This document shows positions 9,980-64,000 of a stretch of 64,000 bases of DNA, one piece after another. Where the stretch lies: the NCBI GenBank assembly GCA_002753565.1, contig PEAM01000002.1:138783-202782 (forward strand). The letters are read 5' to 3'. Origin of the DNA: Magnetococcales bacterium. Its GTDB lineage: Bacteria > Pseudomonadota > Magnetococcia > Magnetococcales > JADFYX01. Both the position numbers and the translations under genes were made by a program. Within the stretch, counting starts at the first letter, position 1; the number at the start of each line of letters is the position of its first letter. Under the pieces are notes generated by a model, which was not told the DNA's origin, searched no databases, and saw only the letters and a list, made by a program, of their open reading frames with translations.

Positions 9980-9991
9980 AGACAGCCAATT

Positions 9992-18793: not shown

Positions 18794-20788
18794 CTATTTG
18801 TTCAACAAAGCCTTGGCTTTAGAAACCACATTTTCCACGTTGAATCCCAAGGCTTTCATGGCGACATCACCAGGTGCCGATGCGCCAAAACGGTCCAGGG
18901 TAATAAGATCTCCATGATCACCGATCCAGCGATGCCAGCCCATGGATGATCCGGCTTCAATGGCCAATCGTGCCCGAACCGAAGGGGGGAGGACCGACTG
19001 CTGGTAGGTTTGGGATTGGCTCTCAAACAGCTCCCAAGAGGGCATGGAGACAACCCGAACCTTGCGCCCCTCTTGGCTGAGTTGGGCCTGGGCCTCCAAG
19101 GCAAGAGAGACTTCGGAGCCGGTTGCCAGGAGAAGAATTTCCGCTTCACCCGCACAGTCAGAGAGTACATAAGCCCCCTTGGCGACCTGATCACGGATGG
19201 TGGGGTCTAAAACCGGGAGATTTTGTCGGGATAGTACCAGGGCGGTGGGTTTTTTCAAGGTGAGAGCCAGAGACCAGGCGGCGGCGGTCTCTTGAGCATC
19301 GGCCGGGCGCAGGGTGATGAGATCAGGGATGGTTCGCATGGCGGCCATGTGTTCCACCGGTTGATGGGTGGGACCATCTTCGCCCACAGCGATGCTGTCG
19401 TGGGTGAGGACATAGGTGACATGGGTGCCCATCAGGGCAGAGAGGCGCATGGCGCCACGCATATAGTCGGAGAAGACCAAAAAGGTGCCGCAAAAGGGAA
19501 TGACACCAGCATGCAGGGCCATACCGTTACAGATGGCGCCCATGGCATGTTCCCGAATACCAAAGTGGATGTTTCTCTCCCCTTGGCCCTCCATCCAGGT
19601 GTTGTTGGAGGGGGCCAGATCTGCCGATCCACCGATTAAGGCCGGAACCCGTACAGCCAGAGCGTTCAACGCTTTGCCCGAGGCGGATCGGGTAGCCAGT
19701 GGCTTGGGATCAAAGCTCAGTGCGTTAAGATCCTGGTTCCAATCGGCAGGAAGCTCTCCCAGCATCTGGGCCTTAAAACGGGCAGCCTCTTCGGGGAACT
19801 GGGTAGAAAAAGCTTCCAGGCGGGCTTCCCACTCGGCCTGTTGCTCTTTCCCCCGAGTCGCAACCCGGCGGCAGTGGTTCAGAGCCTCTTTTGGAATATG
19901 AAAGCGCTCTTTCGGCCATTGATAGAACGTCCGGGTCGCCTCCATGGCCTCACCCTTGAGGGGGGAGCCGTGAACGCCAGAGGTGTCAGCTTTGGGGCTG
20001 CCATAGCCGATATGGGTGCGAACAATGATAAGGGTGGGCCGCTCCTCTTCTTGTTGACCCAGACGGATGGCGCGTTCGATGGCGTCCAGATCTTCACCGT
20101 CATCCACCTGGAGGACCTGCCATTGATAGGATTCGAAACGGGTTGCGACCCCTTCACTGAAGGTCAGATCGGTCTCTCCTTCAATGGTGATCCGATTGTC
20201 GTCGTAGAGATAGATCAGTTTACCCAGACAGAGGTGCCCTGCCAGAGAGGCCGCTTCAGAGGCGATCCCTTCCATCAGATCACCATCGGAGACCAGCGCG
20301 TAGGTAAAGTGGTCGACGATAGGGAGATACTCCTGGCGATTAAAATTTTGCGCCAGATGCCGCTCAGCCATGGCCATGCCGACACCCATGGCAAACCCCT
20401 GTCCCAACGGGCCGGTGGTGGCCTCGACGCCGGGGGTGTGTCCATACTCCGGGTGGCCGGGGGTTTGACTCCCCCATTGGCGAAACTGTTTGACCTCTTG
20501 AAGAGAGAGATCGTAGCCGGTCAGATGGAGCAGACCATAGAGCAGGGCGGAGCCGTGACCGGCGGAGAGAATAAAACGGTCCCGATCCATCCAGCGGGTA
20601 TCTGCCGGGTTATGGCGCATGATACGGGTCCACAGGGTATAGGCCATGGGGGCCGCCCCAAGGGGAAGACCCGGATGGCCGGAATTGGCCTGTTCGATGG
20701 CATCGATAGCCAACATCCTCAAGGTGGTGACGGCCTGTTTTTCCAAAACGGGATTTGGCGCCTGTTTGGGGGTGGGATCTTGTGTCAT
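18794..20788 (-). CDS. tkt: Transketolase
   Basis: Start at ATG 20788 ('MTQDPTPKQ...[14 protein letters not shown]'). Motifs include 'SDGDLMEGI' (TPP binding) and '[15 protein letters not shown]'. The annotated CDS is 664 aa. Confidence 0.9.
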
Positions 20789-21008
20789 AATAGGGGTTTC
20801 CAGTTGGTAGCCAGTAGATTCTTGATTTGCCGGGTTCTCTCCTTCTTGTTTGAGAGTGGGGACTATGTAACATATTTTGCCAGAAACCAAAATGCCCAAT
20901 CATAAAATTGACGGCGGCATGCTGGGTCAACCAGCAGCCGGAGGTGGATGGATGGGGAGCGAAGAGGGGTAGAATACTGGACAAATTAGCGCAAAAAAGG
21001 CTATACCA

Positions 21009-23460: not shown

Positions 23461-26241
23461 CTAATGGCCCTTTTTGTGGGGCTTCTCCGGCTTGGACTCC
23501 ACGGTTTTTCTCGCCAGGACATCCGCGAGCCGATTACCCAGCACCCGGCTGATGTTCAGGTTGAGTTTAGCCGCAATCTGGGGAAAAAATTTCATCCCCT
23601 GTTGCAGTTGGTCAAAGTCGAAGACCAGAATTTCTACCGGTTCCAGTGCTTGAATGTTGGCGACCCGTCGGGTGGCACGGATAAAGCCGATTTCGCCGAA
23701 AATCTGACCGGGCGTCAGCACGGCCACCCGATGCATGCCCCCTTCTCCCTCTTTTTGGATCAGCACCTCTACCGAGCCGGATAGAATCAGGCCCAGACTT
23801 TTGCCCACCGCCCCCTGGCGCATGAGAATATCACCGGTATTAAATAGCTTCAGCTCGGAGATCAGAATGGTTTTTTTCACTTCGAACAGAGACATGCCAT
23901 GAAAAAGAGGACTCTTTTCCACCACATCTCCACGGACCTTCAACGCCAGAATCTGAGCAAAACCGATCAGACGAACCCGACGCATGATGATGGGGGTGAT
24001 GAGCAGGTCGGCAATCACCGCAAAAAAGAGGGTGGCGGCTGAGAGCTGGCCAAATTGGGCGATGATGGTAAAATTGGAGTAGCTGAGAACCAAAAACCCC
24101 AACATCAGAGAGAGGCTGGTGGAGATCACCGGAATGGCCTCATCCCGAATGGTTTGCCGTACGGCCTGCTCTCGATTGGAGGTGTTGCGGCACTCTTCCA
24201 TATAGCGGGAGAGCAGATGGATGGTGTCATCCACAGCGATGCCGATGGCGATGACCGCCACCATGGCTGTCCCTGGGTTGATGGGCAGATCCAGCAGCCC
24301 CATGATACCAAAAACCAGGATAATGGGAATGAGATTGGGAACCAGAGAGATGAATCCACCCTTCAAAGAGGTGAATAGCAGCGACATGAGAATAAAAATC
24401 ACCACCAACAGCAGCCCCAGAGACTGAATCTGGGCTGCGATCAGATCATCAGCCGCTGCATTGATCATCAGGTTTTCTCCCAGCACCGAGGCAGAGATAC
24501 CGGCACCTGCCATGAGCTGAGCCGCTTTTTTCAACGCACCAACCAGAAGATTGAGCTCGTGGGAGTCGTTGATATTGTGCCGGACGACAATATTAGCGGA
24601 AGAAAAGTCGGCACTTACCAGGGAGGAGATCTCTTTGCGGGAGAGGAACAGGAGGTATTGCTCAACCAGGTTTTGTGAATCCGGCACCTTGAACTGGCTG
24701 GCATGCCCCTTGTGAAACGCCTGATTCATCAAAGAGAGCAGGTCGGCCAGAGAGAGGCTGGAGTCGTGTTGATCCTGCTGGTCGAGCCATGCCTGGATTT
24801 TGGAGAGGCGAAGCAGATTCTCCGGGTTTTTGAAGGTATCGGCAGAGTCACTTTTCAGGTGGATGAAAAAGGTCTTTACCCCGGCAAAATCTTCATGAAT
24901 TTTTTCGGTGTGGATGATCAGGGGCTGATCTTCATGAAAATAGGAGAGGGGGTCGTTGGTGACGTGAAGAGTGGTGGCGTGGTGGAGAAAAAACAGCACC
25001 AGCCCGGCGGTGATGATCAGGGTGATCCGGCCATGACGGTGGATGATGCGGTCGAAAAGTCGGATGACCAACCCGGCCACCCCAAAAATCTGACCGTTTT
25101 TTCCCATCATCTTGGAGCGGGTCGGTCCAAAAACCGACAGTATCATGGGGGTCAGCAACAGAGTAACCACCCCATTGAAGGTGATGGCCAGGGCAGCCGC
25201 CAGGGCAAAATCACGGATCATTTCAATTTCGCTGAGCATATTACTGAAAAAACCCAACCCCGTGGTTGTCAGGGTCAGGAGAAGTGGTAGCCCGATGCGG
25301 CGGAGCATGCTGCGGACAGCCTGCAGACGGTTTTTCTTCTTCTGTTCGGTGACCTCTCCCAGGTAAGAGGAGAGCATGTGGGTATCCTCTGTCGCCCCGA
25401 TAACCAGCACCAAAGAGGGGATCATGGCGGTGAGAACATTGATGGGTATGCCAAACCAGCCCATGGTTCCAAAGGTCCATAACAGGCTGATCAGTGAGGT
25501 GAGAACCGGTAAAAGGGCGGCAAACAGCGAGCCCATGAGAAAGGTGATGGAGAGCGCCAGAACCAAGGCGCTGATCGGGGCCAACAGAAGGAGATCATCA
25601 ATGATATTCTGTTTTAACTCTTCACTCAGGCGGGGGGAGCCGACCTGGAAAATCTCTTGGAAGCTGGACTGATGCTCTTTGATGATCCCTTCTATGGCCT
25701 GATAGGCGTTGAAGTCAAAAATTTTATTCCACTTCTGCTCTTCATAGCTGACAATCAAAGCGGCGGCCAGACCATCGTCGGAGATAATCTGCCCGGCCAA
25801 CAGGGGGTTGCGCAGGGCATTTTCCCTGGCTCTGCTAATCTCAAAAGGGTCAGTGGGGTTTTCGGAGAGCAGAGAGCCAAAAGAGAGCGCCCCTTCAGAA
25901 AAACGGATGGAACGGGCGTTGATGATGCTATCGACCTTGGTGACAAAAGAGAGTTTTTCCAGGGTCTGGTGAATCTGGGTCAGAGCCGCCAGCTTGTCCG
26001 GGTGCCAAAGTTCTGCATCCCGGAGATAGAGAATAATTTTACTGTCGGAGCCAAATTTTTCCACCACCTCCTCATAGAGGGAACGGTCCGGAGCGCTGTC
26101 TCCAGCCAGACTAGCCAGGTTGGTCTCTATACGAATATAGACGAGTCCGTAGGCGGAAACAGCGGTAATGATGGTCAATAGAATCAGGGAGACCACACGG
26201 TGCCGTGTTCCGATCAGGAGCGTTTCAATGATTCTATCCAT
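23461..26241 (-). CDS. MMPL/RND-superfamily exporter fused to C-terminal cyclic-nucleotide-binding domain
   Basis: 926 aa with two 6-TM bundles separated by large loops (MMPL/RND topology). The C-terminal ~150 aa, 'GDILMRQGAVGKSLGLILSGSVEV...GQIFGEIGFIRATRRVANIQA', is CAP/cNMP-binding-like. Confidence 0.85.
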   Translation of the reverse strand: MDRIIETLLIGTRHRVVSLILLTIITAVSAYGLVYIRIETNLASLAGDSAPDRSLYEEVVEKFGSDSKIILYLRDAELWHPDKLAALTQIHQTLEKLSFVTKVDSIINARSIRFSEGALSFGSLLSENPTDPFEISRARENALRNPLLAGQIISDDGLAAALIVSYEEQKWNKIFDFNAYQAIEGIIKEHQSSFQEIFQVGSPRLSEELKQNIIDDLLLLAPISALVLALSITFLMGSLFAALLPVLTSLISLLWTFGTMGWFGIPINVLTAMIPSLVLVIGATEDTHMLSSYLGEVTEQKKKNRLQAVRSMLRRIGLPLLLTLTTTGLGFFSNMLSEIEMIRDFALAAALAITFNGVVTLLLTPMILSVFGPTRSKMMGKNGQIFGVAGLVIRLFDRIIHRHGRITLIITAGLVLFFLHHATTLHVTNDPLSYFHEDQPLIIHTEKIHEDFAGVKTFFIHLKSDSADTFKNPENLLRLSKIQAWLDQQDQHDSSLSLADLLSLMNQAFHKGHASQFKVPDSQNLVEQYLLFLSRKEISSLVSADFSSANIVVRHNINDSHELNLLVGALKKAAQLMAGAGISASVLGENLMINAAADDLIAAQIQSLGLLLVVIFILMSLLFTSLKGGFISLVPNLIPIILVFGIMGLLDLPINPGTAMVAVIAIGIAVDDTIHLLSRYMEECRNTSNREQAVRQTIRDEAIPVISTSLSLMLGFLVLSYSNFTIIAQFGQLSAATLFFAVIADLLITPIIMRRVRLIGFAQILALKVRGDVVEKSPLFHGMSLFEVKKTILISELKLFNTGDILMRQGAVGKSLGLILSGSVEVLIQKEGEGGMHRVAVLTPGQIFGEIGFIRATRRVANIQALEPVEILVFDFDQLQQGMKFFPQIAAKLNLNISRVLGNRLADVLARKTVESKPEKPHKKGH

Positions 26242-33405: not shown

Positions 33406-35784
33406 CTATCGGGTGGATTGAGTCATATAGAGTTCATCCAGCAATTTGAAAAGCTCCACACGGACAGATTCCAGAGCCAGGTAGAGTTTTTGTGCTTCGT
33501 CACGTTGTCCAACCTTGCTGGCATCCAACACCATGGCACCCTGGTCATGAACCTGAGAGTGAACCCGGCCTATCTCTTGGAAGAGTGGAAGATGGCCCAG
33601 CTGTTGAGTCCCTTCATTATCGTACCATTGACCAAATTTGCAGTCGTGACCGGTACGGATCTCGTCGATGGAGAGGGTGCTGCTACGTCCCAAGGCCATC
33701 TGACCCAGGTTGCCAAGCCAGACAAGGTGGTGATGCTTGACGGTATAGATATCCAGAGGAAGCTGACCAATATCCAGCTCCTTGACCGCATCTTGAAGAT
33801 CGTTGCTGGCCCCGTCTACGACGTTGTTCATGCGTACCGTATGGCTGATCATACCATCGACCAAGGTGTTGAGATCGTAAATTTTCAACGCATTTTTCTG
33901 GACATCGGCCGAAGAGCTGAAAATTCCCTCACCCAACCCCTTGATCTGCTGTGTCATGTCGCTGACCGCATTGACCTCCAGGGTAATGGTGTCCGACTCG
34001 GCTGCGGCCCGTTGAGAGGATTCGGCAATGGCAGCGGTGTTGGCGGCGGCCTGCTGAGCATTGCGAGAGACCTCCTGAGCCGCCATGCCCATGTCATGGA
34101 CATTTCGGGTCACGGCCTGGGCCGCCTGCTCGACATCATTCATGGAGTTGGCGATGCTCTCTACCGATTCGCTCTGTTCGGTCACAGCCAGGGTGATATT
34201 CTGGTTGGACTGGTCGATTTGGGTGAAGGCTTTGGTTACCCGCTGGGTTGTCTCATTGGCTGCTTTGGTGTTGTCTTGGATCATCTCCACCATTTTAGAG
34301 ATCTCCAGGGTGGCGCTGACCGTCTGTCGAGCCAGATCCTTGACCTCATCAGCCACCACCGCAAACCCTTTGCCAGCCTCCCCGGCCCCGGCAGCCTCAA
34401 TGGCAGCGTTCAAGGATAGCATGTTGGTCTGTTCGGCAATGTTGCTGATGATATCCACCACATGACCAATCTCCTGGGCCGACTGGGCCAGGGTTGCCAT
34501 AATGGATTGGTTCTCCTCGACCAGATTGCTGGCCTTGCTGGTGGTATGGCTGGCAGATTGACAGAGATCTCGAACCGAATTAAGCGAGTTGGTCACCCCC
34601 TGAATAGAGGCGGTGACCGTATTGACCGAGTTGCTGACCAGTCCCAGACTCTCATCCACCCCACCAATGTTGGCGGTCATCTCCTCGGCGGCTGAGGCCA
34701 TGGTCAAGACGTTCTGGCTGACACTTTCGGCTTCAGTGGCGATGGTCTGAATCTCTGCAGCAAGCTGTCCGACCCGACCGTTGACCACCAGAACATTATC
34801 GGCAGCATCATCGACGCTGTTTTTCAGGTTGGTTGTCTCTTGGTCGATTTGATCGTTATCTTTGACCATTTGAATGATCATGGCCCGAATTTCTGCCGCA
34901 TCGGCCTCCAGCACCGCACCAGAGGTGGTCATGGCTCGGACCACCGCCTGGGTGGTCTGGGCTTGCAGTTGAATGGCTCGGGTACTGTTGGCCAGACTGT
35001 CGGCCATACGGTTGACCAGGGCGCTGATTTCGTTGATCTCGTCTCTTTTTTCAGGAATCTCGATCCGCTGGGTCAGATTGCCCTGGGTCATGCTGTTGAT
35101 CATGAGAGAAATCTCTTTGAGGGGGCTGATAATGGTTCGACCCAGAATGAAGAAGGCCCCCAGAGCGACAATAAGGGTCACAATGGCTGTCTCCACTCCC
35201 AGGCTTCTGGCTCCTTCCCAAAACAGTCGGTTGACATCATCCAGATAGATTCCCGAACCGATAACCCAACCCCATGGCTCAAACCCTTTAACAAAAGAGA
35301 TTTTGGCTACCGGTTTGTCGAAGCCGGGCTTGGGCCAGAGGTAGTCCACAAAGCCGGAGCCCTGCCGCTTGACAATTTGGGTAAAATCATAAAAGAGCCG
35401 TTTCCCCCCTTTATCCTTAAATTGGGAGAGATCTTTACCGTTGAGTTTGGGCTTGATGGGATGCATCACCATCACGGCATCCATGTCGTTGATCCAAAAA
35501 TAGTCGTTCTCTTCGTAGCGAAGAGATTGGATGATGGCTTTGGCCTGCTCTTGGGATTGGGCTCGGGAGAGGGTGCCGTTCTGCTCCAGAGTGTAGAAAT
35601 GGCTTAGAACGCTGTGGGCGGTCTCCACCACATTGCGGGTTTTGATTTTGCGGTCGCTGAGTAGCTCCCCCTCCCGGCTGCTGATGGTGATGATGCCGCT
35701 GATGACCATACCCAACAGTGCAAACAGGATGATCAGATGAATCCGGCCCCGAACACTCAAAAACGAACTTAAACCATTCACCAT
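33406..35784 (-). CDS. Methyl-accepting chemotaxis protein: sCache-type sensor, HAMP, MCP signalling domain, C-terminal CZB zinc-binding domain
   Basis: 792 aa. The sensor has '[15 protein letters not shown]...[11 protein letters not shown]' (single-Cache type). The signalling tip is '[40 protein letters not shown]'. The CZB pattern is 'HLVW...CKFGQW...HSQVH'. Confidence 0.9.
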
Positions 35785-44337: not shown

Positions 44338-44416
<79 letters not shown>

Positions 44417-44452
44417 TTTCCAACATCGCCGAATGGCTGATGACTTCGGCTT

Positions 44453-44529
44453 GCGCTCGTAGCTCAACAGGATAGAGCAACGGCCTTCTAAGCCGTAGGT
44501 TACAGGTTCGATTCCTGTCGAGCGCACCA
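44453..44529 (+). tRNA. tRNA-Arg (anticodon TCT)
   Basis: Hand-folded cloverleaf: acceptor GCGCTCG/CGAGCGC, anticodon loop CTTCTAA, T-arm ACAGGTTCGATTCCTGT, an encoded CCA, then a T-run. Confidence 0.9.
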
Positions 44530-44584
44530 TTTTTTCAGTTGACTTTATTTGCCCTTTTTTCCTATCTTCAAAACCCCACCGTAT

Positions 44585-44661
44585 GGCGGTCGTAGCTCAG
44601 TTGGTAGAGTCCCGGATTGTGATTCCGGTTGTCGCGGGTTCAAACCCCGTCGATCGCCCCA
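44585..44661 (+). tRNA. tRNA-His (anticodon GTG) with encoded G-1
   Basis: Hand-folded cloverleaf: an extra 5' G opposite C73, acceptor GCGGTCG/CGATCGC, anticodon loop TTGTGAT, and an encoded CCA followed by T7. Confidence 0.9.
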
Positions 44662-51914: not shown

Positions 51915-53699
51915 CTACTGCTCCCAAGGGTAGGCCAGTCCAACCAGACGAAACCCCACATCCGCATCCCGCTCATCAGGTGCAAAGCTGTCTCGGTAGG
52001 CGGAGCGAGTACGAAGGGAAGGGGAGAGCCAGGAGCCGCCCCTCAGGACCCTTTCACCCTGTTTAGACCAGACACTGCGGGGGTTTTCGGTTGGCGAGGT
52101 GTGATAAAAATTGGGCTCATACCAATCTCGGGTCCACTCGAAAACATTGCCATGCATATCCAGTAGACCATAGGGGTTGGCGGCATGGGAAAAATGTTCT
52201 ACCGGGGTGGTTCCCGCTCTAAAGAGGCCGGGTTGACTGAAGGGGGAGGGTTTCAATCCGTTAAAGTTGGCTTGATCACTTAGGATCTGCTCTCCGAAAG
52301 AGAACGGTGTCTCGCTACCCCCCCGGCAAGCCCGCTCCCATTGGGCTTCGCTGGGGAGTTGAATGAAACGATGACAGCGCTGGGAGAGCCACTCGGCCAT
52401 GGCCAAGCAATCGGCATAGGTGACATTGACCACAGGGTGGTCCTCCTCCTGGTGGAAACCCGGCGCCATCCACCCCTCACCCTCTCTTCTCTCCAACCGC
52501 CCTTTTGCCGGGTTCCAAACCCGAAACCACCCCTCTCTCTGTGCCAGGGTCTGATAGCCTGTCTTCTGCTGAAACCGGCTGAACGATGCACGGGTTATGG
52601 GGGTACGGCAGATCCAGAAACCGTTGAGCTTAACCGGATGCCGAGGGGTTTCGCGCTGAAAGCTGGTGGTATAGTCCTCTTCACCAAAGGTTTGGATAAT
52701 GGTCTCCTGCTCTGCCGCACTCTGGCCCATAAGGAAGGTACCGCCAGGGACCCAGTTGAAGGTCAGCTCCACACCCGCCTCCGCAATGGTCCACCCCTTC
52801 CCGGCCGGCAGGCGACTGCGGAGCAGAAGCGTCGCCTTTCTCTTCTTCCCCTGGGGAAGCACCACCTCCTGCACCTGATCCAGAGTCCATCTTTTCTTGG
52901 GATTTTTAGCCAACATGCCTGCCAGGAGTGTTTTTAACGGTTTGGGGCAGCTATCGGGAATGTTGACCGGGTTGACATTTTTTTGGTGTTTACCAATGGT
53001 CTCCGATCCGCCCTCATAGGCCGGACGACCAAAGAGCATGAAATAGAGGGTCATCCCCAGGGAGTAGACATCAGAGACCAGATAACGTCTTTTACGCCAC
53101 ACCTCTGGGGCGGTATAGCTATGGGTGCCGGAAACAGCAGGCTCTCGTGCCCGGTGCCACTCACAGGCCAGACCCCAGTCGGCCAGATACCAGCTCATTC
53201 GGTCTGTTCCGGTTCTCTTGCCGATAATGTTTGAGGGCTTGATGTCTCGGTGGATGATGGGGGGAGTGCTGTGGTGGGCATGGGCAACCGCTTGGACCAT
53301 CTGGCCAAGCACCGAGAGCGCTTCGGACTCCTTCAGGCAGCCACGGTCGACAATGGCCTGTTTTAGGTTCCCCCCATCCAGATAGTCGGTGATGATAATC
53401 ATGGCGCCGTCTTCATCCAGCCAGCTTTCATGGAGAGGCAGAATATGGGGTCCATCTCGGAGGATGGTCAGCATTTTTACCTCCGACCGATAGAGGTAGG
53501 GCTTTCTGGCTACCGTCGCCTGTTTCATGGCAAAAAGACGACCCGATGCCAGCTCACGCACTTGATAGATCAGGGCAAAATTACCCTCTCCCACTTTTTT
53601 TACGATTTCGTACCGTCCCGATCCCAGGCGCTCTCCGGCAACATACTTTTTCGGAAAGTTATCGGGTTGGGCGGCGGGGAATGTTTGGGTGGTGTTCAA
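51915..53699 (-). CDS. Ser/Thr protein kinase fused to FGE-sulfatase (SUMF1-like) domain
   Basis: 594 aa. Kinase motifs are 'VGEGNFALIY', 'FAMKQ', 'HRDIKPSNII', 'DWGLA' and 'YTAPE'. The C-terminus has 'GNVFEWTRDWY' and 'RVLRGGSW' (FGE-sulfatase). The apparent start is TTG, with no in-frame ATG before the kinase domain. Confidence 0.85.
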   Translation of the reverse strand: MNTTQTFPAAQPDNFPKKYVAGERLGSGRYEIVKKVGEGNFALIYQVRELASGRLFAMKQATVARKPYLYRSEVKMLTILRDGPHILPLHESWLDEDGAMIIITDYLDGGNLKQAIVDRGCLKESEALSVLGQMVQAVAHAHHSTPPIIHRDIKPSNIIGKRTGTDRMSWYLADWGLACEWHRAREPAVSGTHSYTAPEVWRKRRYLVSDVYSLGMTLYFMLFGRPAYEGGSETIGKHQKNVNPVNIPDSCPKPLKTLLAGMLAKNPKKRWTLDQVQEVVLPQGKKRKATLLLRSRLPAGKGWTIAEAGVELTFNWVPGGTFLMGQSAAEQETIIQTFGEEDYTTSFQRETPRHPVKLNGFWICRTPITRASFSRFQQKTGYQTLAQREGWFRVWNPAKGRLERREGEGWMAPGFHQEEDHPVVNVTYADCLAMAEWLSQRCHRFIQLPSEAQWERACRGGSETPFSFGEQILSDQANFNGLKPSPFSQPGLFRAGTTPVEHFSHAANPYGLLDMHGNVFEWTRDWYEPNFYHTSPTENPRSVWSKQGERVLRGGSWLSPSLRTRSAYRDSFAPDERDADVGFRLVGLAYPWEQ

Positions 53700-54440: not shown

Positions 54441-55505
54441 TTAATCCTCCAGGGCTTTTCCTCTGAAAAATGCCTTATATTTTGTATCGGTTCGGGAGGT
54501 GTGGCTGAAGAACCACTCCAGAAGATAGAACACCAGATCGACGGCATAAAAAATCTCCCGCTCTTCCAGCAGCTTGCTTTTAAATTCGGTAAATTTATCA
54601 ATAAAGCTCTGATGCTCCTGAACGTGTGCCTCCAGGCCTGGGTAGCTGTGGCGGCGCATGAGGCTCTCCTCGGCGCCAAAATGGCTTTTGGTATAGTTGG
54701 AGAGAAAGGTCAGGGTTTTATCAATACGTTGCCAGTCGTCGGCTGAGGGTTTGCGATTGCTCAGCGCTTCGGTCAGTTCATGAAACCCACTGATTTGGTT
54801 TAACAGCTCTCGATGTTCCAGGTTAAAGCGGGCTACCCCCACATCTTGCAGCCGTTGGAGCAGTTTTTCCCGGTAGCTCTTTTTACTGATGCCGGCGTGG
54901 CGCAGGGCGGGGATCTCTTTTGGGTTTTTTTTGGGCAGCGGGGCTTTGTCGAAACTGCGGGGTGGCAGCCCCTGGGAAAAACGGGAATATTGCATATCTT
55001 GGCTGTTGATGTGGTCAAACAGCCAACTGACCGTTTTGTGGAGTAGATCGATTACATAGACCGATGAGGTGCTGCGCATTTTATCTTCGATAGCCAGGAG
55101 TCCTGCCACAAATTGGCGGTGGGCCTCTTTATGTTTATTCAACCCTTCAAAGCCAATTTTTTCCATAAAGGCCTCTTCACGGCTGAAATGTTGGGTTGCG
55201 TAGCTTTTTAAATGGTTCAGGGTATCATCCAGCGCCTGCTCCTCCGTTGGGGTGGGTCGGCTGCGCTGCATTTTTTTAACACAGACATACAGGGTGACAA
55301 TAATCTCAATCAGCCCCTCATGTTCCCGCTGAAGTTGGGGGACATGGATGGTTCTGAGCCGGGCAAATAGCCGTGTTCTGAAATCTTGGATATCCGGGTC
55401 GTTAATGGTGATGGAGGAGGAGAGGGTCATAGCTGGTTTGGCTCCTGCAAAGGGCAGAAAAAATGAGGCACTTTTTTTAAAGCTACCATAACCGGCTACC
55501 GGCAT
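54441..55505 (-). CDS. Tandem (double) hemerythrin-domain protein
   Basis: 354 aa with two complete motif sets. The first is 'QREHEGL / HFSREEAFM / HKEAHRQF / DHINSQD' and the second is 'NLEHREL / HFGAEESLM / HVQEHQSF / SHTSRTD'. An alternative start is ATG 55430. Confidence 0.8.
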   Translation of the reverse strand: MPVAGYGSFKKSASFFLPFAGAKPAMTLSSSITINDPDIQDFRTRLFARLRTIHVPQLQREHEGLIEIIVTLYVCVKKMQRSRPTPTEEQALDDTLNHLKSYATQHFSREEAFMEKIGFEGLNKHKEAHRQFVAGLLAIEDKMRSTSSVYVIDLLHKTVSWLFDHINSQDMQYSRFSQGLPPRSFDKAPLPKKNPKEIPALRHAGISKKSYREKLLQRLQDVGVARFNLEHRELLNQISGFHELTEALSNRKPSADDWQRIDKTLTFLSNYTKSHFGAEESLMRRHSYPGLEAHVQEHQSFIDKFTEFKSKLLEEREIFYAVDLVFYLLEWFFSHTSRTDTKYKAFFRGKALED

Positions 55506-58014: not shown

Positions 58015-58665
58015 ATGATGAAACCAGCTTTTAGCCGGACCGGAAGCTACGCCGCTTTTTTTGGGTGTATCGTGGTCCTGATGCTGTTTACTACCTCTGT
58101 TCAGGCAGAGGTGGTCAATATCAACCAAGCCGATGCGGCAACCCTGCAGAAAAATCTGAAGGGTGTTGGGCCGGTGAAGGCTCAGGCGATTATCGACTAC
58201 CGTAACCAGCATGGCCCCTTCCAGAGTGAAAAAGATCTGGAGAAGGTCCCTGGGATCGGCTCGAAGATCATGGAAAAGAACCAAAACGCGATATCAACCT
58301 CTCGTGGGGCGGCTCAGAGCCAGAGAAGCCAAAATCGTCGTGAAGATATCGACAAGAGGAGTGAGAGAAAAGAGAATATGAGTCAGCGTTCCCAGCGACT
58401 GGAAGAGCGCAAAGAGAGGCTCTCCAACGAGCAGGCCAGCGATACCGAAAACCCCACAAAAAATGCTGAAAAAATTGAGAAAATTACAAAAAAACAGCAG
58501 CGGATCAAAGAGCGATCAGAGAAAATGGGTAAAAAGAGCAAGAAAAGCCAAGAAGAGATAAAGAGAATAAAAGAGGAGCGAAAGAAACAGCGGAAAAAGG
58601 CCAAAAAGAAAAAGGCCAAAAAAAAGATGAAGAAGGAAGAGCAAACCACCTCTGACAGCCAGTAA
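58015..58665 (+). CDS. ComEA-like helix-hairpin-helix DNA-binding protein with long Lys/Glu/Arg-rich C-terminal tail
   Basis: 216 aa with a signal/anchor 'AAFFGCIVVLMLFTTSVQA' and HhH motifs 'VNINQADAATLQKNLKGVGPVKAQAII...LEKVPGIGSKIMEKN'. About 120 aa of charged low-complexity sequence follows, ending 'KKQRKKAKKKKAKKKMKKEE'. Confidence 0.75.
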   Translation: MMKPAFSRTGSYAAFFGCIVVLMLFTTSVQAEVVNINQADAATLQKNLKGVGPVKAQAIIDYRNQHGPFQSEKDLEKVPGIGSKIMEKNQNAISTSRGAAQSQRSQNRREDIDKRSERKENMSQRSQRLEERKERLSNEQASDTENPTKNAEKIEKITKKQQRIKERSEKMGKKSKKSQEEIKRIKEERKKQRKKAKKKKAKKKMKKEEQTTSDSQ

Positions 58666-59004: not shown

Positions 59005-59047
59005 CCCTCCTCCGGCAACCAGACGTTGCCGGAGGAGGGCTCTTTTT
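59005..59047 (+). terminator. Rho-independent terminator
   Basis: Perfect 15-bp stem ccctcctccggcaac (59005-59019) / gttgccggaggaggg (59025-59039) with a 5-nt loop, followed by cTCTTTTTT. Confidence 0.85.
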
Positions 59048-59234
59048 TGATGGCTTGCCAACACCCCCTTGCACCCCTTCTCTCCCCCCCCCTCCCTCCG
59101 GAAGGTTGTTCGGATAAAACTCTTTGAAAATTGAATGCGATAGGTATACATTCAATCTGTTTATGTAAAAGATCAGGGGGCGGTTCATTCGGTACCCTTT
59201 GGATTCCAGATTCAGGTAGAGAAGGTCGAGACAG

Positions 59235-61445
59235 ATGAGTATCTTGGTGGTAGCTGTAGTCGTCGTGGTGGCAATGGGGCTCTCTTCTTTAGCGACCGTG
59301 TTGGTCCTTCGCAAGATCCATTCAGGTCAGAGCCAGACGCTAAAGACGGCTATGGATCAGGCTGCCATGGGCGATTTGATGGTCACCATCCCAGAGGCCT
59401 CTCCCCTTTCAGTAGAGGTAAAATCGGGTTGGCAGGAGATGTTGAGTCGGCTGGCGGGCAATTTGCGGCGGATTATTTTGCAGTCGGATACGGTGGCGGC
59501 TTCGGTTAATGAGCTGCTGATTATCAAGAAAAACCTCGGCGACTCCACCGTCGATACTCTCAAATCGGTTGAGTCCATGGACCATCAGCTCCAGGATTTG
59601 GGCGGGGCCATCAGCCGGGTAGAGGAGAATGTCACCAGCACCTCTGCTCTGGTGAACGACATTACCTCGGCCACCGACATGTTAACCGAGGATATCTCCA
59701 AGATTACCGAGTCGGCAGAGAGTGCCAATCAAAATGTCACCACCATGGCAGCCGCCGCTGAGGAGATGACGGCCAATTTGGCTGCTGTCAATCAAAGTTT
59801 GGCCGAGGTCAACGAGTCGGTCAATCAGGTCTCCACCTCCACCAGCAACCTTTCGGTCACCATCGACGGCATCCGTGATCTCTGCTCCTCTGCCAGCAAG
59901 CAATCTTCCCAGGCTGACCAATATGCCACCGACAGTGGCGTCAAGATGGAGCAGCTGGCCAGTTATACCGATGAGATCGGCAGTTTTGTCGAGATGATCA
60001 ACAATATTGCCGAACAGACCAACATGCTGGCCCTCAACGCCTCCATCGAGGCGGCTGGAGCGGGTGAGGCGGGTAAAGGGTTTTCGGTGGTTGCCAACGA
60101 GATCAAAGAGTTGGCCCGTCAAACCTCCGATACCACCTCGGCCATCTCCGAAAAGGTGACCAATATCCAGCTCCACACCAAGGAGGTGGTCTACGCCAAC
60201 CGGGAGGTGACGGTCATTATCCAGGGCATCAACCAGTCCAATCAGAACATCGCCCTGGCTGTTGATGAGCAGTCCCATGCCATTCGGGGTATCTCCGACT
60301 CCCTGACCACCGTAACCAACGCCACCCAAGAGGTGACCCGTAATGCCTCTGAACTTCAGGTAGCCGCGGATGAGGTGGCCCGCTCAGCCGGTATAGCCGC
60401 CTCGGGTTCCGAGGCCATTGTTCACGCCTCTGCCGAAGTGGCGGAAGCGGCAGATGGGGTCTCCAAGAACAGCCAGGAGATCAATCAATTGATGGTTGGC
60501 GTTCAAGAGCAGATTGCCAAGACCACCCAGGTCTCCGCTGAGGCCAATAAAAACATTCAAGAGGTTTTTGCCATCGCTCAGAAGATGCAGGGGGGGGTGC
60601 GTAACTTTGAGCTGTTGATCGATGTCATTCAGGGCAGTGTGGAGTCGTTGTGCGCCAGTCAAATCAACTACACCACCGGTATCCAATCCTTTGAGGTGAC
60701 AGCGGTCAAGGAGGGGCATCTGGCGTGGTTGCGTAAGTTGGATGGTGCCATTCAAGGGGTGCTCACCCTGGACCCCAAAGAGGCTGAAAATGGTCGGGCC
60801 TGCCATTTTGGCAACTGGTACTATGGCGCCGGCGAGAAGCTGTTTGGGGATGATCCTCTCTTTCAGGAGATCGGTACCGTTCACCAGGATGTCCACACCC
60901 TGGCCCGGGATGCCATTCTCAAGGTGAATGAAGGGGATAAGGCGGGAGCTGTCGAGTTGATGGAGAAGTTCAACCACCTCCGCCACGAACTCTTCGTCAA
61001 ACTGGATTTTCTCTACATGAAGGGGAGTGTCAGCGACGAGAAGATGTTCTATTGGGATGACTCCCTGGATGTGGGGGTCAAGCAGCTCAATGATGAACAT
61101 ATCGTGCTGATGGATATGATCAACGACCTCCATGCCGGTATGAAGAGCGGCTTGGATAAAGAGAAAATGGCGAAGATCCTGGATGGACTGGCCGACTTTA
61201 CCGGTACTCACTTCTCCCATGAAGAGGCGTTGTTGGCCAAGTACGATTATGAGCGGCTACCCCAGCAAAAAGCGCTGCATGTCAAGCTGATTGCCAAGCT
61301 TGGCGAACAGCGGGAGGCCTTCTTCTCCGGCTCGGCTACCGCCTCTTTGGATGTGCTCTCTTTCCTTAAAGATTGGCTGATTACCCATATCAAGGGGGAG
61401 GATATGCGCTATAAATCTTTCTTTGAGTCCAGAGGCGTTCACTAA
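59235..61445 (+). CDS. Methyl-accepting chemotaxis protein with C-terminal CZB and hemerythrin domains in tandem
   Basis: 736 aa with a single N-terminal TM and HAMP-like segment. The signalling tip is '[40 protein letters not shown]'. The CZB pattern is 'GHLAW...CHFGNW...HQDVH'. The hemerythrin motifs are 'NDEHIVL / HFSHEEALL / LHVKL / THIKGED'. Confidence 0.9.
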   Translation: MSILVVAVVVVVAMGLSSLATVLVLRKIHSGQSQTLKTAMDQAAMGDLMVTIPEASPLSVEVKSGWQEMLSRLAGNLRRIILQSDTVAASVNELLIIKKNLGDSTVDTLKSVESMDHQLQDLGGAISRVEENVTSTSALVNDITSATDMLTEDISKITESAESANQNVTTMAAAAEEMTANLAAVNQSLAEVNESVNQVSTSTSNLSVTIDGIRDLCSSASKQSSQADQYATDSGVKMEQLASYTDEIGSFVEMINNIAEQTNMLALNASIEAAGAGEAGKGFSVVANEIKELARQTSDTTSAISEKVTNIQLHTKEVVYANREVTVIIQGINQSNQNIALAVDEQSHAIRGISDSLTTVTNATQEVTRNASELQVAADEVARSAGIAASGSEAIVHASAEVAEAADGVSKNSQEINQLMVGVQEQIAKTTQVSAEANKNIQEVFAIAQKMQGGVRNFELLIDVIQGSVESLCASQINYTTGIQSFEVTAVKEGHLAWLRKLDGAIQGVLTLDPKEAENGRACHFGNWYYGAGEKLFGDDPLFQEIGTVHQDVHTLARDAILKVNEGDKAGAVELMEKFNHLRHELFVKLDFLYMKGSVSDEKMFYWDDSLDVGVKQLNDEHIVLMDMINDLHAGMKSGLDKEKMAKILDGLADFTGTHFSHEEALLAKYDYERLPQQKALHVKLIAKLGEQREAFFSGSATASLDVLSFLKDWLITHIKGEDMRYKSFFESRGVH

Positions 61446-61451
61446 TGCTCT

Positions 61452-61483
61452 CCCCCTCAGGAGGGTGGCCCCTCCTGAGGGGG
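61452..61483 (+). terminator. GC-rich hairpin after the MCP gene (possible terminator, no U-tract)
   Basis: ccccctcaggaggg (61452-61465), loop tggc, then ccctcctgaggggg (61470-61483). It is followed by TAAAAAA rather than a T-run. Confidence 0.35.
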
Positions 61484-61528
61484 TAAAAAAGCCTGCCCCC
61501 CTCTTTTTGCCCAATCTTCAACAGCCCT

Positions 61529-61558: not shown

Positions 61559-61607
61559 ATCCTTAATAATAGGATTGGGGTGGCTTTTTTGGAGGTTTGA
61601 CGAGCAG

Positions 61608-64000
61608 ATGGCTTTTTTTGTAGATTCTGGATTCGATAAAAGCCTGGCTTTTCCCGCAAGCTACGATCCTGTTTTTGTTGTCAGCTCCTTTTTGGCGATC
61701 TACCTTGGCGCCTACTCCGGTCTGGCGATAGTCCAACATATCAAGCAGGTGGATAGCCCGGCAAAGAGAAACCTCTGGTTGGCCTTTGGTAGTCTGGTGT
61801 TGGGGAACGGTATCTTCAGCATGCACTTTATCGGCATGCTGGCCCAAAAGCTGCCGGTGACCACCCAATATGATCTTGTCCTGACCATCCTTTCCGGCTT
61901 TCCAGCTATCCTGGCGGCGTGGTCTCTGCTCGCTTTTTCCGAAAAAGACCAAAAGGGCGGCTCCTTACCGTGGCTGGGAGGGATGATTACCGGCCTGCTG
62001 GTGGTGGTCATGCACACCAGCGGCATGCTCTCCATGCGCCTTGATGCCCTGATGCTTTTTGATCCTCTTGTTTTTACCTTATCGATTATTGTCGGCCTTT
62101 TTCTGGCGGTGGGGGCGGTGGGGGCCAGAAGGGTGGTTTACACGTTAAAACTGCCGGCGGACTCTCGGTTGGGCCGCCATCTGCATGCACTGATTATCGC
62201 TCTCTCCCTCTTCTCCATCCACTACTTTTCTCTGTTAGCCGTCTGGGTTCTTCCGGGAGACCCCCGCCATAGCTCCTCGGATCTGCTGGTAGAACCGGTG
62301 ATGATGGGGATCGGGCTGGTTATCATCTTTTTTATCCTTGCGGCCTCCTCCCTTCTCACCCTCCACCTCAGCCACGGCTACGCAGGGTTTGATACCCAGA
62401 ACTCTCTTTGGTCCACCCTTTTTGACCAGGAGAATGTGTCGGTTTTTCGTAACGTTCTGCTTTTTAACTTCGCGCTGTTTTTTTTCATCACCTGGGTGGC
62501 GCTGTTTATCCATGATGCCAAGGAGAAGAGTGACCGCAAGCAGGCGGCCCAGTTTGAGATCAAACGGGTGTTACAGGTTGCCGCCCATGATTTTGAGTCG
62601 ATTATTTCCGACCTCAACTTTCTGTTGTCCAGCGACCATCTGGCAGAGTATCTCATCCAAAAAGAGGCGCTGACCAAGGCTAAACTGGCCCGGCAATTCA
62701 TAGCCCTGGCCCGAGAGCGGCGGATGTATGATCAGATTCGGCTGATCAATCTGGAAGGGGTTGAGGAGGTGCGGGTCAACTCGGGTCTGGATGGACAATC
62801 GACCCTTGTTGAGCCGTCCCAGCTGCAGAACAAGTTGGGCCGGGACTATCTCCGGGATGCCATCGCCTTGCCTCGTGGGCAGTTTTATATCTCCCGCTTC
62901 AACCTGAACCAGGAGCAGGGCCAGGTCGAGGAGCCTTATAAACCCATGATCCGTTTTGCCGCACCGGTTTTCGACCAGGAGGGCAATAAGCAGGGGGTGA
63001 TGGTCTTAAACTATCTGGGCTCCCTGTTATTGGGCCATATTCAAGATATCTTCAGGATGTCCCAAAACGAGGTTTATCTGCTGGATAAGGAGGGCTACCT
63101 GCTGATGAGTCCCGATCCGGCGGATCAATGGGGTTTTATGTTTAACAGGGAGCCGGTTTTCAAGGATAGGTTCCCCCTTTTCACCCAGTTGATGTCCCGC
63201 CGTAGCCAGGGGGAGTTTGAGACCAGGAATGGTCAGTTTATCTTCAAGGCCATAACGGTCTCGTTGCGAGAGGATCTACGCCCCAGCTTTGGTAAGAGCG
63301 GTAAAGAGTGGAAGGTGGTTATTCGGGTTGGTGAGGTCGAGCGCTCCTGGCGGGATCTGGCTGACCACCCCATTGCGGTGGTTATTACTGTCTGTGGTAT
63401 TTTTCTGGCTTTTTTCATCTCCCTGTTTGCCTCGCTGTTGCTCATCTCCCGTAAAAACTACGAGAAGAAAGAGACTGAGGCTCTGCGAGAGTTGGAGTTT
63501 CAAAAACGGGCTTTGGATGAACATGCCATTGTCTCTGCGACGGATGTGACCGGTCGGATCAACTACGTCAACGACAAGTTTGTCGCCATCAGCGGCTACA
63601 CCCGTCAGGAGCTGTTGGGCAATACCCACCGCATGGTCAAGTCTGGGGAGCACTCATTATCTTTTTATCAGAACATGTGGCGCACCATCAGCGAGGGTAA
63701 AACCTGGCATGGTGAGGTGCGAAATTTGACCAAAGAGGGGGAGTCCTACTGGGTTCGGGCCACCATTGTCCCCTTTTTGAACAGGCGGGGCAGGCCGTTT
63801 AAGTATGTCTCCATCCGTACCGACGTCACCGAGATGAAAGTGCTGGAGGCGCGGCTGTTGGTTGCCAAGGAGGAGGCGGAAGCGGCGGGCCGGGCCAAAA
63901 GCGATTTCCTGGCCAACATGAGCCATGAAATCCGCACCCCCATGAATGCCATTATCGGTTTGAGCCATCTCTGTCTTCAAACCCGGTTGACTGCTCGGCA
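61608..64000 (+). CDS. Sensor histidine kinase, partial (runs off window): MHYT membrane domain, Cache-like periplasmic domain, PAS, HisKA
   Basis: This ORF is absent from the supplied track because it has no stop in the window, so I translated it by hand. The frame is open from ATG 61608, with GGAGG 12 nt upstream and an in-frame TAA at 61533-61535. Motifs seen: 'SMHFIGM', 'VMHTSGM', 'SIHYFSL' (MHYT), '[23 protein letters not shown]', the PAS segment '[24 protein letters not shown]...', and the H-box '[16 protein letters not shown]'. Confidence 0.85.

What the first reader, a model, noticed from the sequence alone, without database searches (positions are those of the whole stretch)
59235..61445. 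Chemoreceptor carrying two different metal-centre sensor domains in series (CZB zinc-binding + hemerythrin) after the signalling domain
The architecture read from the sequence is as follows. A single N-terminal TM anchor has no periplasmic domain and is followed by a HAMP-like segment. Next is a canonical MCP signalling domain. Then comes a CZB motif set ('GHLAW' ... 'CHFGNW' ... 'HQDVH'). Finally there is a full hemerythrin domain ('NDEH', 'HFSHEE', 'LHVKL', 'THIKGED'). C-terminal CZB domains (TlpD-type, Zn/oxidant sensing) and C-terminal hemerythrin domains (DcrH-type, O2 sensing) are each known on chemoreceptors. I am not aware of a described receptor that stacks both. The hemerythrin here also has Gln where the other hemerythrins in this window have the first His of the HxxxH pair ('PQQKALHVKL' versus 'EAHVQEHQSF' and 'ASHREEHRQF'), suggesting a modified metal site. 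This is a candidate integrator of zinc/oxidant and O2/iron signals for aero- or redox-taxis, and the strongest candidate for a new sensory design in the window.
Basis: partly seen in the sequence, partly recalled or inferred. Interest (0 to 1): 0.7.

Follow-up and report, generated by a model that had tools for sequence, protein, structure and literature searches.

The report
Chemoreceptor with zinc and diiron sensors
This gene encodes a real chemotaxis receptor from a magnetotactic coccus that carries a zinc-binding CZB domain followed by an oxygen-binding hemerythrin domain; the papers I could search do not describe this combination, but public genomes of this bacterial order hold many copies of it, so it is an uncharacterised family rather than a one-off.

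Summary
ORF 59235-61445 (+, 736 aa) encodes an N-terminal TM anchor, a HAMP-like segment, MCPsignal (111 bits), CZB (50 bits; Zn ligands H495/C523/H550/H554) and bacteriohemerythrin (121 bits). The hemerythrin keeps six of seven diiron ligands, with Gln678 replacing the fourth His. Predicted folds match DcrH-Hr (TM 0.95) and DgcZ-CZB.

It is not unique. The exact protein is GenBank MBF0455354.1 from a Magnetococcales MAG, labelled only "bacteriohemerythrin". MCP-CZB-Hr is a large paralogous family in Magnetococcales (MC-1, MO-1, PR-3, IT-1, many MAGs) and also occurs in Spirochaetales MAGs. No searchable paper describes the tandem. The His→Gln change is the commonest known bacterial hemerythrin ligand variant, and all 12 members of the nearest clade have it.

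The window also holds an MCP-CZB paralogue (37% identical) that ends exactly where the hemerythrin linker begins. The receptor is therefore a TlpD-like chassis with a DcrH-like hemerythrin appended.

Among hemerythrin-bearing homologues, 57% have lost Zn ligands while the diiron ligands never vary. This suggests hemerythrin is the primary sensor and CZB the relay, acting as a second oxidant input where its site is intact, as it is here.

Verdict: new variant of known kinds. Interest is moderate.

The parts
59124..59152 (+). Sigma-70-like promoter match (TTGAAA-17-TACATT) 83 nt upstream of the start codon
   Evidence: This is a consensus match only: 4 matches were found in the region against 2.0 expected.
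59005..59039 (+). Terminator-like hairpin (15-bp stem, 11 GC pairs, T-run) that ends the upstream gene and isolates the receptor as its own transcription unit
59235..61445 (+). Complete receptor gene, 736 codons plus TAA. Identical to GenBank MBF0455354.1.
59241..59309 (+). Single N-terminal transmembrane anchor (res 3-25, ILVVAVVVVVAMGLSSLATVLVL); no periplasmic domain
   Evidence: Read directly from the sequence. AF2 models a helix over res 2-44. The same short N-terminus is found in P0002, P0004 and P0006.
59313..59489 (+). HAMP-like segment (res 27-85, with GDL at 46-48)
   Evidence: It aligns to the Pfam-HAMP-positive region of P0001/P0003/P0005. There is no Pfam HAMP hit in this protein itself. 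AF2 gives helix-loop-helix: H2-44, loop 45-59, helix from 60.
59490..60674 (+). MCP cytoplasmic coiled-coil hairpin (res 86-480). The Pfam MCPsignal core is res 215-384 (59877-60386). The tip is [35 protein letters not shown].
   Evidence: 110.9 bits. Invariant tip residues.
59748..59777 (+). Consensus methylation-site motif [10 protein letters not shown] (res 172-181)
   Evidence: Regex match. A172, A174, A175, E176 and M178 are invariant or near-invariant.
60687..61019 (+). CZB helical bundle (res 485-595). Pfam CZB covers res 495-561. Zn ligands are H495 (60717), C523 (60801), H550 (60882) and H554 (60894). It ends in the conserved LFxxLDxLYM helix.
   Evidence: AF2 pLDDT is 91-97. Foldseek hit to DgcZ CZB 3T9O_B: prob 1.00, TMt 0.63.
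61020..61052 (+). 11-residue CZB-Hr linker (res 596-606, KGSVSDEKMFY)
   Evidence: Low sequence conservation (23% in the nearest clade) but constrained length of 10-17 residues. pLDDT dips to 61.
61053..61430 (+). Bacteriohemerythrin four-helix bundle (res 607-732). Ligands are H622, H659, E663, Q678 (61266-61268, in place of His), H682, H718 and D723.
   Evidence: Foldseek hit to DcrH-Hr 2AVK: TMt 0.95, rmsd 1.3 A.
61479..61500 (+). Terminator-like hairpin 34 nt after the stop codon
33406..35784 (-). Paralogous sCache_2-HAMP-MCPsignal-CZB receptor without hemerythrin. It represents the 'chassis': 37% identical to the finding over 563 aa, and it terminates at LDELYMTQS* exactly where the finding continues into linker and Hr.

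Best explanation
This is a functional, membrane-anchored chemoreceptor that senses only from the cytoplasm, from a Magnetococcales (magnetotactic coccus) genome. It is built on a TlpD-like MCP-CZB chassis, with a DcrH-like bacteriohemerythrin appended through a short linker.

The proposed signal path is serial. O2 binding or oxidation at the diiron site changes the hemerythrin bundle and its N-terminal segment. That site is tuned in this clade by a conserved His->Gln ligand. The change acts through the 11-residue linker on the last CZB helix. The CZB bundle, presumably dimeric as in DgcZ, passes the change to the C-terminal arm of the MCP hairpin and so to CheA.

In this clade the CZB Zn(His3Cys) site is intact and conserved. 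The CZB therefore probably also contributes a second input, oxidant or thiol state, as shown for TlpD and DgcZ. The receptor would then report O2 and cellular redox state together for (magneto-)aerotaxis.

Shown here: the architecture, the ligand sets, the folds, the family distribution and the modular origin. Inferred: metal occupancy, the identity of the signals, the direction of coupling and the behavioural role.
For: All three domains pass curated thresholds, and both C-terminal folds match solved structures. The Zn ligands H495/C523/H550/H554 and the Hr ligands are conserved in all 12 members of the nearest clade at 36-48% overall identity. In that clade CZB (42%) and Hr (54%) are as conserved as, or more conserved than, the MCP arms (38-46%). 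The linker length is constrained to 10-17 residues. The window's own MCP-CZB paralogue ends exactly at the junction, which shows a modular Hr addition. The gene is intact, with its own promoter-like and terminator-like signals. A methylation consensus motif is present, and the window holds a CheA and further MCPs. From established knowledge: the DcrH-Hr domain binds O2 at a diiron site and its N-terminus is proposed as the signal path (Xiong 2000 and Isaza 2006, cited in PMC9388753 and PMC13401364). The CZB Zn-Cys site senses HOCl and Zn in TlpD and DgcZ (PMC8262984).
Against: 57 of 100 Hr-bearing homologues have lost at least one Zn ligand, and 35 keep only one, while the other six diiron ligands are invariant in 100 of 100. 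Hr signalling therefore does not require a Zn site, and the CZB could be only a relay. AlphaFold gives no confident relative placement of CZB and Hr (pTM 0.52 despite pLDDT 86). No che genes are adjacent, and the PR-3 relative P0004 does not share this neighbourhood. There are no experimental data for any member. The effect of Gln678 on iron binding is unknown.
Confidence: 0.5

Rival explanations
1. Single-input receptor. Hemerythrin is the only sensor (O2 or redox), and the CZB is a structural dimerisation and relay module whose zinc, where retained, is purely structural. The 'two sensors in series' reading would then be an over-interpretation of domain names.
For: Zn ligands are dispensable in 57% of Hr-bearing homologues, while the CZB-like bundle itself is always retained (W528 in 119 of 120) and the other six Hr ligands never vary. 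All 20 Hr-less MCP-CZB homologues keep 4 of 4 Zn ligands (Fisher p=5e-7). This fits a sensor role that becomes redundant once Hr is present.
Against: In the finding's own clade all four Zn ligands are conserved in 12 of 12 members despite 36-48% overall identity, which argues for selection on the site. The 20/20 figure comes from a sample ranked by similarity to a query with an intact CZB, so it is biased.
Confidence: 0.3
2. The hemerythrin domain senses iron availability (Fe2+ loading), or NO or H2O2, rather than O2. This would link taxis to the iron economy of a magnetosome-forming cell. The His->Gln ligand would make one iron labile.
For: Gln678 replaces a ligand of the tri-His iron and is conserved in the clade. 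The organism belongs to a magnetotactic order. From general knowledge, iron-sensing hemerythrin-like domains exist (FBXL5).
Against: The domain is closest in both sequence and fold to O2-binding DcrH-Hr and M. capsulatus bacteriohemerythrin. The Gln variant is widespread in non-magnetotactic bacteria and in single-domain hemerythrins.
Confidence: 0.1
3. Chemical relay. O2 binds the diiron site as hydroperoxide, autoxidation releases H2O2 next to the CZB, and this oxidises the Zn-bound Cys523. An O2 signal would be converted into the TlpD/DgcZ-type Cys-oxidation switch.
For: The two sites are tethered by only 11 residues and are co-conserved in the clade. From established knowledge, DcrH-Hr autoxidises rapidly and the CZB Cys is oxidant-reactive (PMC8262984).
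Against: Most Hr-bearing paralogues lack the Cys or His ligands yet keep Hr. No predicted interface brings the two sites together. The idea is purely speculative.
Confidence: 0.07
4. The hemerythrin is a decaying, non-metal-binding appendage because of the lost His, and the protein works simply as a TlpD-like CZB receptor.
For: One of the seven canonical ligands is missing.
Against: The other six ligands are invariant. Gln is conserved in 12 of 12 clade members rather than drifting. Hr is the best-conserved region outside the MCP core (54%). pLDDT is 84-97 and TM is 0.95 to DcrH-Hr.
Confidence: 0.03

Closest known systems
Helicobacter pylori TlpD and the 'membrane-bound chemoreceptor CZB' subgroup of Perkins et al. 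2021 (PMC8262984)
   Same: An MCP signalling domain is followed by a C-terminal cytoplasmic CZB with the 3His/1Cys site and the Cx[LF]GxW motif. The window's own paralogue at 33406-35784 has exactly this type.
   Different: In TlpD the CZB is the last domain and the protein is soluble. Here the receptor has a TM anchor and a HAMP-like segment, and a hemerythrin follows the CZB. The published CZB census lists no hemerythrin partner.
Desulfovibrio vulgaris DcrH (MCP with a C-terminal hemerythrin domain; structures 2AVK/2AWC)
   Same: Hemerythrin is the C-terminal domain of an MCP. DcrH-Hr is the closest solved homologue by sequence (E 9e-16) and by fold (TM 0.95, rmsd 1.3 A).
   Different: DcrH has a periplasmic domain and all seven canonical ligands, and its published domain description shows no domain between MCP and Hr; I did not scan DcrH itself for a CZB. 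In the genome scan, matches from Desulfovibrio-type genomes cover only the hemerythrin part of the query. Here a CZB intervenes and the fourth His is Gln.
Uncharacterised Magnetococcales MCP-CZB-Hr paralogues (e.g. P0007, P0030, P0068 and P0100 in M. marinus MC-1; P0006 in MO-1; P0004 in PR-3; P0016 and P0046 in Magnetofaba IT-1)
   Same: They have the same three-domain C-terminal stack. P0002, P0004 and P0006 also share the short TM-only N-terminus and the Gln variant.
   Different: They are only 33-48% identical to the finding. Many add periplasmic Cache, PilJ, NIT or 4HB ligand-binding domains, and about half have degenerate Zn sites. None has been studied experimentally as far as the searchable literature shows.
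Escherichia coli DgcZ (CZB-GGDEF; 3T9O)
   Same: It has the same CZB fold and ligand set (Foldseek prob 1.0).
   Different: Its CZB is N-terminal and regulates a diguanylate cyclase rather than a chemoreceptor. Sequence identity is 17%.

Membership tests
Methyl-accepting chemotaxis protein (PF00015) | Conserved signalling hairpin with the kinase-control tip | tested here: met
   MCPsignal scores 110.9 bits against a cut-off of 34.6. The tip residues Q261-A294 are invariant across homologues.
Methyl-accepting chemotaxis protein (PF00015) | Methylation-site consensus [ASTG][ASTG]xx[EQ][EQ]xx[ASTG][ASTGN] | tested here: met
   One match, [10 protein letters not shown] at res 172-181, which is conserved. 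Actual methylation cannot be tested here.
Methyl-accepting chemotaxis protein (PF00015) | Couples to CheA/CheW | not testable with these tools
   A CheA gene is present in the window (7874-9979) but is not adjacent, and no interaction data exist.
CZB domain (PF13682; TlpD/DgcZ type) | Profile match above the curated threshold | tested here: met
   49.9 bits against 29.4, covering the full model 1-64.
CZB domain (PF13682; TlpD/DgcZ type) | 3His/1Cys zinc ligands and the Cx[LF]GxW alpha-3 motif | tested here: met
   H495, C523 (CHFGNW), H550 and H554 are present, and all are invariant in the nearest clade.
CZB domain (PF13682; TlpD/DgcZ type) | Antiparallel helical-bundle fold like DgcZ CZB | tested here: met
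   AF2 pLDDT is 91-97. Foldseek hit to 3T9O_B: prob 1.00, TMt 0.63, 108 columns.
CZB domain (PF13682; TlpD/DgcZ type) | Binds Zn2+ and reacts with oxidants at the Cys | not testable with these tools
   This needs ICP-MS and Cys-oxidation assays.
TlpD-like architecture | CZB is the C-terminal-most domain of the receptor | tested here: not met
   A 126-residue hemerythrin follows the CZB.
Bacteriohemerythrin (NF033749 / PF01814) | Profile match above the curated threshold | tested here: met
   NF033749 scores 121.4 bits against 84. PF01814 scores 41.7 against 25.3.
Bacteriohemerythrin (NF033749 / PF01814) | All seven canonical diiron ligands H-HxxxE-HxxxH-HxxxxD | tested here: not met
   Six of seven are present. 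The first His of HxxxH is Gln678. This is a known recurrent variant (PMC2556348).
Bacteriohemerythrin (NF033749 / PF01814) | Four-helix-bundle hemerythrin fold | tested here: met
   Foldseek hit to 2AVK: TMt 0.95, rmsd 1.3 A over 135 columns.
Bacteriohemerythrin (NF033749 / PF01814) | Binds two Fe and O2 | not testable with these tools
   This needs metal analysis and spectroscopy, especially given Gln678.
DcrH-type architecture | Hemerythrin directly follows the MCP signalling domain | tested here: not met
   A roughly 110-residue CZB bundle lies between them.

The most novel reading that the evidence does not exclude
The CZB-Hr tandem is a dedicated two-metal logic module rather than two independent sensors. 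One version is a chemical relay, in which H2O2 released by hemerythrin autoxidation oxidises the neighbouring Zn-Cys switch. The other is a biphasic set-point device, in which the diiron site reports 'too oxic' and the Zn-thiolate reports 'too reduced'. Either would give a single receptor the band-forming, two-sided O2 preference that magneto-aerotaxis requires. The Gln678 ligand would tune the diiron potential for this role.
Probability: 0.12. Interest if true: 0.75.

Novelty: new variant of a known kind. Interest (0 to 1): 0.45.

Why it matters
Recent reviews state that how a C-terminal hemerythrin passes its signal to an MCP is unresolved even for DcrH (PMC9388753, PMC13401364). How magnetotactic cocci set their O2 preference is also poorly understood.

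This family offers a natural comparative series, all on one homologous chassis and sometimes within one genome. It includes MCP-CZB, MCP-CZB(intact)-Hr and MCP-CZB(degenerate)-Hr, each with or without periplasmic ligand-binding domains.

If both metal sites are active, this would be a receptor class that integrates O2 and oxidant or thiol state in the cytoplasm. It would add hemerythrin to the known CZB partner domains.

The practical significance is limited for now. Nothing has been tested experimentally, and the architecture has been sitting in public genomes, mislabelled simply as 'bacteriohemerythrin'.

Tried and rejected
(1) Gene-fusion or assembly artefact (an MCP-CZB gene run into a downstream hemerythrin gene). 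Rejected: the fusion is conserved in 58 of the best 150 clusters and in complete genomes such as MC-1.

(2) Degenerate hemerythrin. Rejected: see rival 4.

(3) A fixed CZB-Hr interface. The two-domain AF2 model has pLDDT 86 but pTM 0.52, and the linker pLDDT is 61, so packing is not supported. The tool returns no PAE or coordinates, and no dimer could be modelled.

(4) Full-length AF2. The MCP hairpin was modelled as one 417-residue helix, a monomer artefact. It gave no information on how the C-terminal domains sit relative to the hairpin.

(5) Operon or che-gene linkage. None was found. The gene looks monocistronic, and the neighbourhood of the PR-3 relative P0004 differs, consisting of hybrid kinases and response regulators.

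(6) A free-standing CZB-Hr cassette without an MCP (P0123, P0140, P0202). These lie on 2.4-5.7 kb contigs, and a cluster-mate of P0202 is 948 aa, so they are probably truncated genes.

(7) Genome-collection scan for taxonomic spread. It returned mostly Hr-only loci from Desulfobacterota and Spirochaetota and only two tandem loci, L006 and L057. It cannot be used as a census.

(8) The look-up of encoding contigs for P0007 and for the window protein. Nothing was on record.

(9) The first homology search suggested that no close relative existed (best 48% identity). This was a clustering artefact. The exact protein is in the collection, but its 90% cluster is represented by a 50-aa fragment.
Full report
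OBSERVATION

Profile searches confirm all three claimed domains above curated thresholds.
- MCPsignal covers res 215-384 (110.9 bits against 34.6).
- CZB covers res 495-561 (49.9 bits against 29.4, full model length).
- Hemerythrin covers res 614-727 (41.7 bits against 25.3).
- NCBIfam bacteriohemerythrin NF033749 scores 121.4 bits against 84 over res 605-730.

Every quoted motif is present, and each maps to a metal ligand.
- CZB ligands are H495, C523, H550 and H554, with W498, G526 and W528.
- Hemerythrin ligands are H622, H659, E663, H682, H718 and D723.
- Gln678 (CAA, 61266-61268) occupies the seventh position.

A HMMER alignment to the solved DcrH hemerythrin domain (2AVK, E 9e-16) places Gln678 opposite the fourth ligand His.

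The N-terminus is one hydrophobic helix (res 3-25) with no periplasmic domain. The following segment is HAMP-like only by alignment to homologues that carry a Pfam HAMP hit. Pfam HAMP itself does not score in this protein.

AlphaFold models are confident for both C-terminal domains, with pLDDT 91-97 for CZB and 84-97 for Hr. Foldseek matches DcrH-Hr (TM 0.95, rmsd 1.3 A) and the DgcZ CZB domain 3T9O (prob 1.00, TM 0.63).

WHERE IT COMES FROM

A housekeeping protein in the window, the transketolase at 18794-20899, is 100% identical to MBF0454707.1 from a 'Magnetococcales bacterium' MAG, on a contig of 235,842 bp. An exact-sequence look-up shows the receptor itself is GenBank MBF0455354.1, 736 aa, from the same contig. 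It is annotated only as 'bacteriohemerythrin'.

It was invisible in the first homology search, where the best hit was 48% identical. The reason is that its 90% cluster is represented by a 50-aa fragment.

HOW COMMON THE ARCHITECTURE IS

The first search returned 4044 homologues at E<=1e-10, and every named protein among the best 120 is from Magnetococcales. I aligned the C-terminal 290 residues of those 120.
- 100 carry a hemerythrin, and 20 are MCP-CZB proteins without one.
- All 120 have a CZB-like bundle (W528 in 119 of 120).
- Of the 100 with hemerythrin, 43 keep all four Zn ligands and 57 have lost at least one; 35 keep only one.
- The other six hemerythrin ligands are invariant in 100 of 100.
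- The seventh position is His in 80 and Gln in 20.
- All 20 Hr-less proteins keep 4 of 4 Zn ligands (Fisher p=5e-7). This sample is ranked by similarity to a query with an intact CZB, so the contrast is biased.

Cultured strains carry several copies each: M. marinus MC-1 (P0007, P0030, P0068, P0100), MO-1, PR-3 and Magnetofaba IT-1.

An exhaustive HMMER scan of 1.84 billion cluster representatives with res 470-736 found 60 proteins at E<=1e-30. Of the best 150 clusters, 58 match across both domains in one stretch.

Outside Magnetococcales, the full MCPsignal+CZB+Hemerythrin stack is confirmed in two Spirochaetales MAG proteins. P0219 (NNM67367.1) has Cys->Ser.

Many family members add periplasmic Cache, PilJ or NIT domains. 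The window protein is the minimal, cytoplasm-only version, as are P0002, P0004 and P0006.

MODULAR ORIGIN

The window itself encodes an sCache_2-HAMP-MCPsignal-CZB receptor at 33406-35784 on the - strand. It is 37% identical to the finding over 563 residues and stops at '...LDELYMTQS*'. That is precisely where the finding continues from 'LDFLYMKGS' into the linker and hemerythrin. The receptor is therefore a TlpD-like MCP-CZB chassis with a DcrH-like hemerythrin added at the C-terminus.

In the nearest clade (12 sequences, 36-48% identical overall), domain identities are as follows:

| Region | Mean pairwise identity |
|---|---|
| MCP core | 59% |
| Hr | 54% |
| MCP arms | 38-46% |
| CZB | 42% |
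| Linker | 23% |

The linker is constrained in length to 10-17 residues. All Zn ligands and Gln678 are conserved in 12 of 12.

THE GLN

The substitution is real and conserved in the clade, but it is not special to this receptor. Gln at that position also occurs in single-domain 135-aa bacteriohemerythrins (P0190, P0209, P0215) and in MCP-Hr proteins without CZB (P0171, P0175, P0185 and others).

Bailly et al. 2008 already reported that 18% of bacterial hemerythrins have altered ligands, 63% of them in helix C, and that His->Gln is the commonest change (PMC2556348).

By established hemerythrin chemistry, this His is one of three ligands on the six-coordinate iron, not the O2-binding iron. A tuning role is therefore plausible, but it is only inferred.

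LITERATURE

'Hemerythrin' and 'CZB' co-occur in only two papers of the searchable corpus, and neither concerns a tandem.
- The CZB census of 10,140 sequences lists 4HB, globin, PAS/Cache, HAMP, MCP, CheW, GGDEF and EAL as partners, but not hemerythrin (PMC8262984).
- The hemerythrin-sensor review and a 2026 aerotaxis review describe DcrH only and mention no CZB. Both state that Hr-to-MCP signal transmission is not understood (PMC9388753, PMC13401364).
- The chimeric hemerythrins of MC-1 were counted in 2008, and the hemerythrins of IT-1 in 2016 (PMC5088516). Neither paper notes the intervening domain.

MECHANISM

Best explanation (confidence 0.5): a serial design. The hemerythrin senses O2 or oxidation. 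The change passes through the short linker into the last CZB helix, then through the CZB bundle into the C-terminal arm of the MCP hairpin, and so to CheA. Because the Zn(His3Cys) site is intact and conserved in this clade, the CZB probably adds an oxidant or thiol input, as shown for TlpD and DgcZ.

Main rival (0.3): the CZB is only a relay. This is supported by the frequent loss of Zn ligands in Hr-bearing paralogues.

Minor rivals: iron or NO sensing by the Gln-modified site (0.1); a chemical relay from Hr-generated H2O2 to Cys523 (0.07); a dead hemerythrin (0.03).

AlphaFold does not support a fixed CZB-Hr interface in the monomer: pTM is 0.52 and the linker pLDDT is 61.

The gene appears monocistronic. 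A strong terminator-like hairpin lies at 59005-59039, a promoter-like site at 59124-59152, and a terminator-like hairpin at 61479-61500. No che genes are adjacent, although a CheA and a dCache MCP lie at 7.9-12.7 kb in the window.

VERDICT

The tandem is real, is under selection in this clade, and is undescribed in the searchable literature. It is nevertheless an abundant family, expanded in Magnetococcales, that is already present in public genomes, and the exact protein is already deposited. I classify it as a new variant of known kinds (TlpD-type plus DcrH-type). Interest is moderate (0.45), mainly because the family is a natural comparative series for the open question of how C-terminal metal-sensor domains control an MCP.

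Noticed in passing
window 61605-64000 (+), runs off the window end: the ORF listing shows nothing in the stretch immediately downstream of the receptor, because the ORF there is open at the window end. It is a large sensor kinase of at least 798 aa: MHYT membrane repeats, a bacterial HK sensor (Cache-like) domain, PAS and HisKA. MHYT is itself a proposed gas or metal sensor, so two putative O2/redox sensors sit side by side.
   Followed up: partly
window 33406-35784 (-): An sCache_2-HAMP-MCPsignal-CZB receptor without hemerythrin. It is 37% identical to the finding and ends exactly at the CZB/linker junction (LDELYMTQS*). It is the Hr-less chassis of the same family.
   Followed up: yes
window 54441-55505 (-): A 354-aa protein with two hemerythrin domains in tandem, both with the full HxxxH pair. 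A covalent di-hemerythrin was called unique to Rhodospirillum rubrum in the 2008 survey (PMC2556348).
   Followed up: partly
window 3824-5449 (-): N-terminal hemerythrin, then a multi-pass membrane segment, then GGDEF (541 aa). This is a Bhr-DGC-like diguanylate cyclase but with a membrane-embedded middle region.
   Followed up: partly
window 59883-59885 (Cys217 of the receptor): A Cys inside the MCP signalling coiled coil (RDLCSSAS) is conserved in 66 of 70 family members and in the window's MCP-CZB paralogue. The protein has only three Cys in total (217, 473, 523). It might be a further redox-sensitive position; this was not examined.
   Followed up: partly
window 7874-12709 (+): A chemotaxis cluster: CheA (Hpt, H-kinase_dim, HATPase_c, CheW domains) at 7874-9979, followed directly by a dCache_1 MCP at 9992-12709. 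Small ORFs upstream (7140-7844) were not scanned.
   Followed up: partly
window 58015-58665 (+): A ComEA-like helix-hairpin-helix protein whose C-terminal half is an extremely Lys/Glu/Arg-rich low-complexity tail (…KKQRKKAKKKKAKKKMKKEE…). A 107-aa ORF with a weak HhH match follows it.
   Followed up: no
window 51915-53699 (-): A Ser/Thr protein kinase domain fused to an FGE-sulfatase (formylglycine-generating-enzyme-like) domain, 594 aa.
   Followed up: no
window 23461-26241 (-): An MMPL/sterol-sensing-domain transporter (926 aa) with a C-terminal cyclic-nucleotide-binding domain, which is an unusual fusion.
   Followed up: no
window 44338-44661 (+): A cluster of three tRNA genes, tRNA-Pro(TGG), tRNA-Arg(TCT) and tRNA-His(GTG). 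These are the only Rfam hits in the window.
   Followed up: yes
database cluster of the receptor (P0364/P0365): The 736-aa receptor sits in a 90% cluster whose representative is a 50-aa JGI fragment. Homology searches therefore do not return the protein's own entry and wrongly suggest that no close sequence exists.
   Followed up: yes
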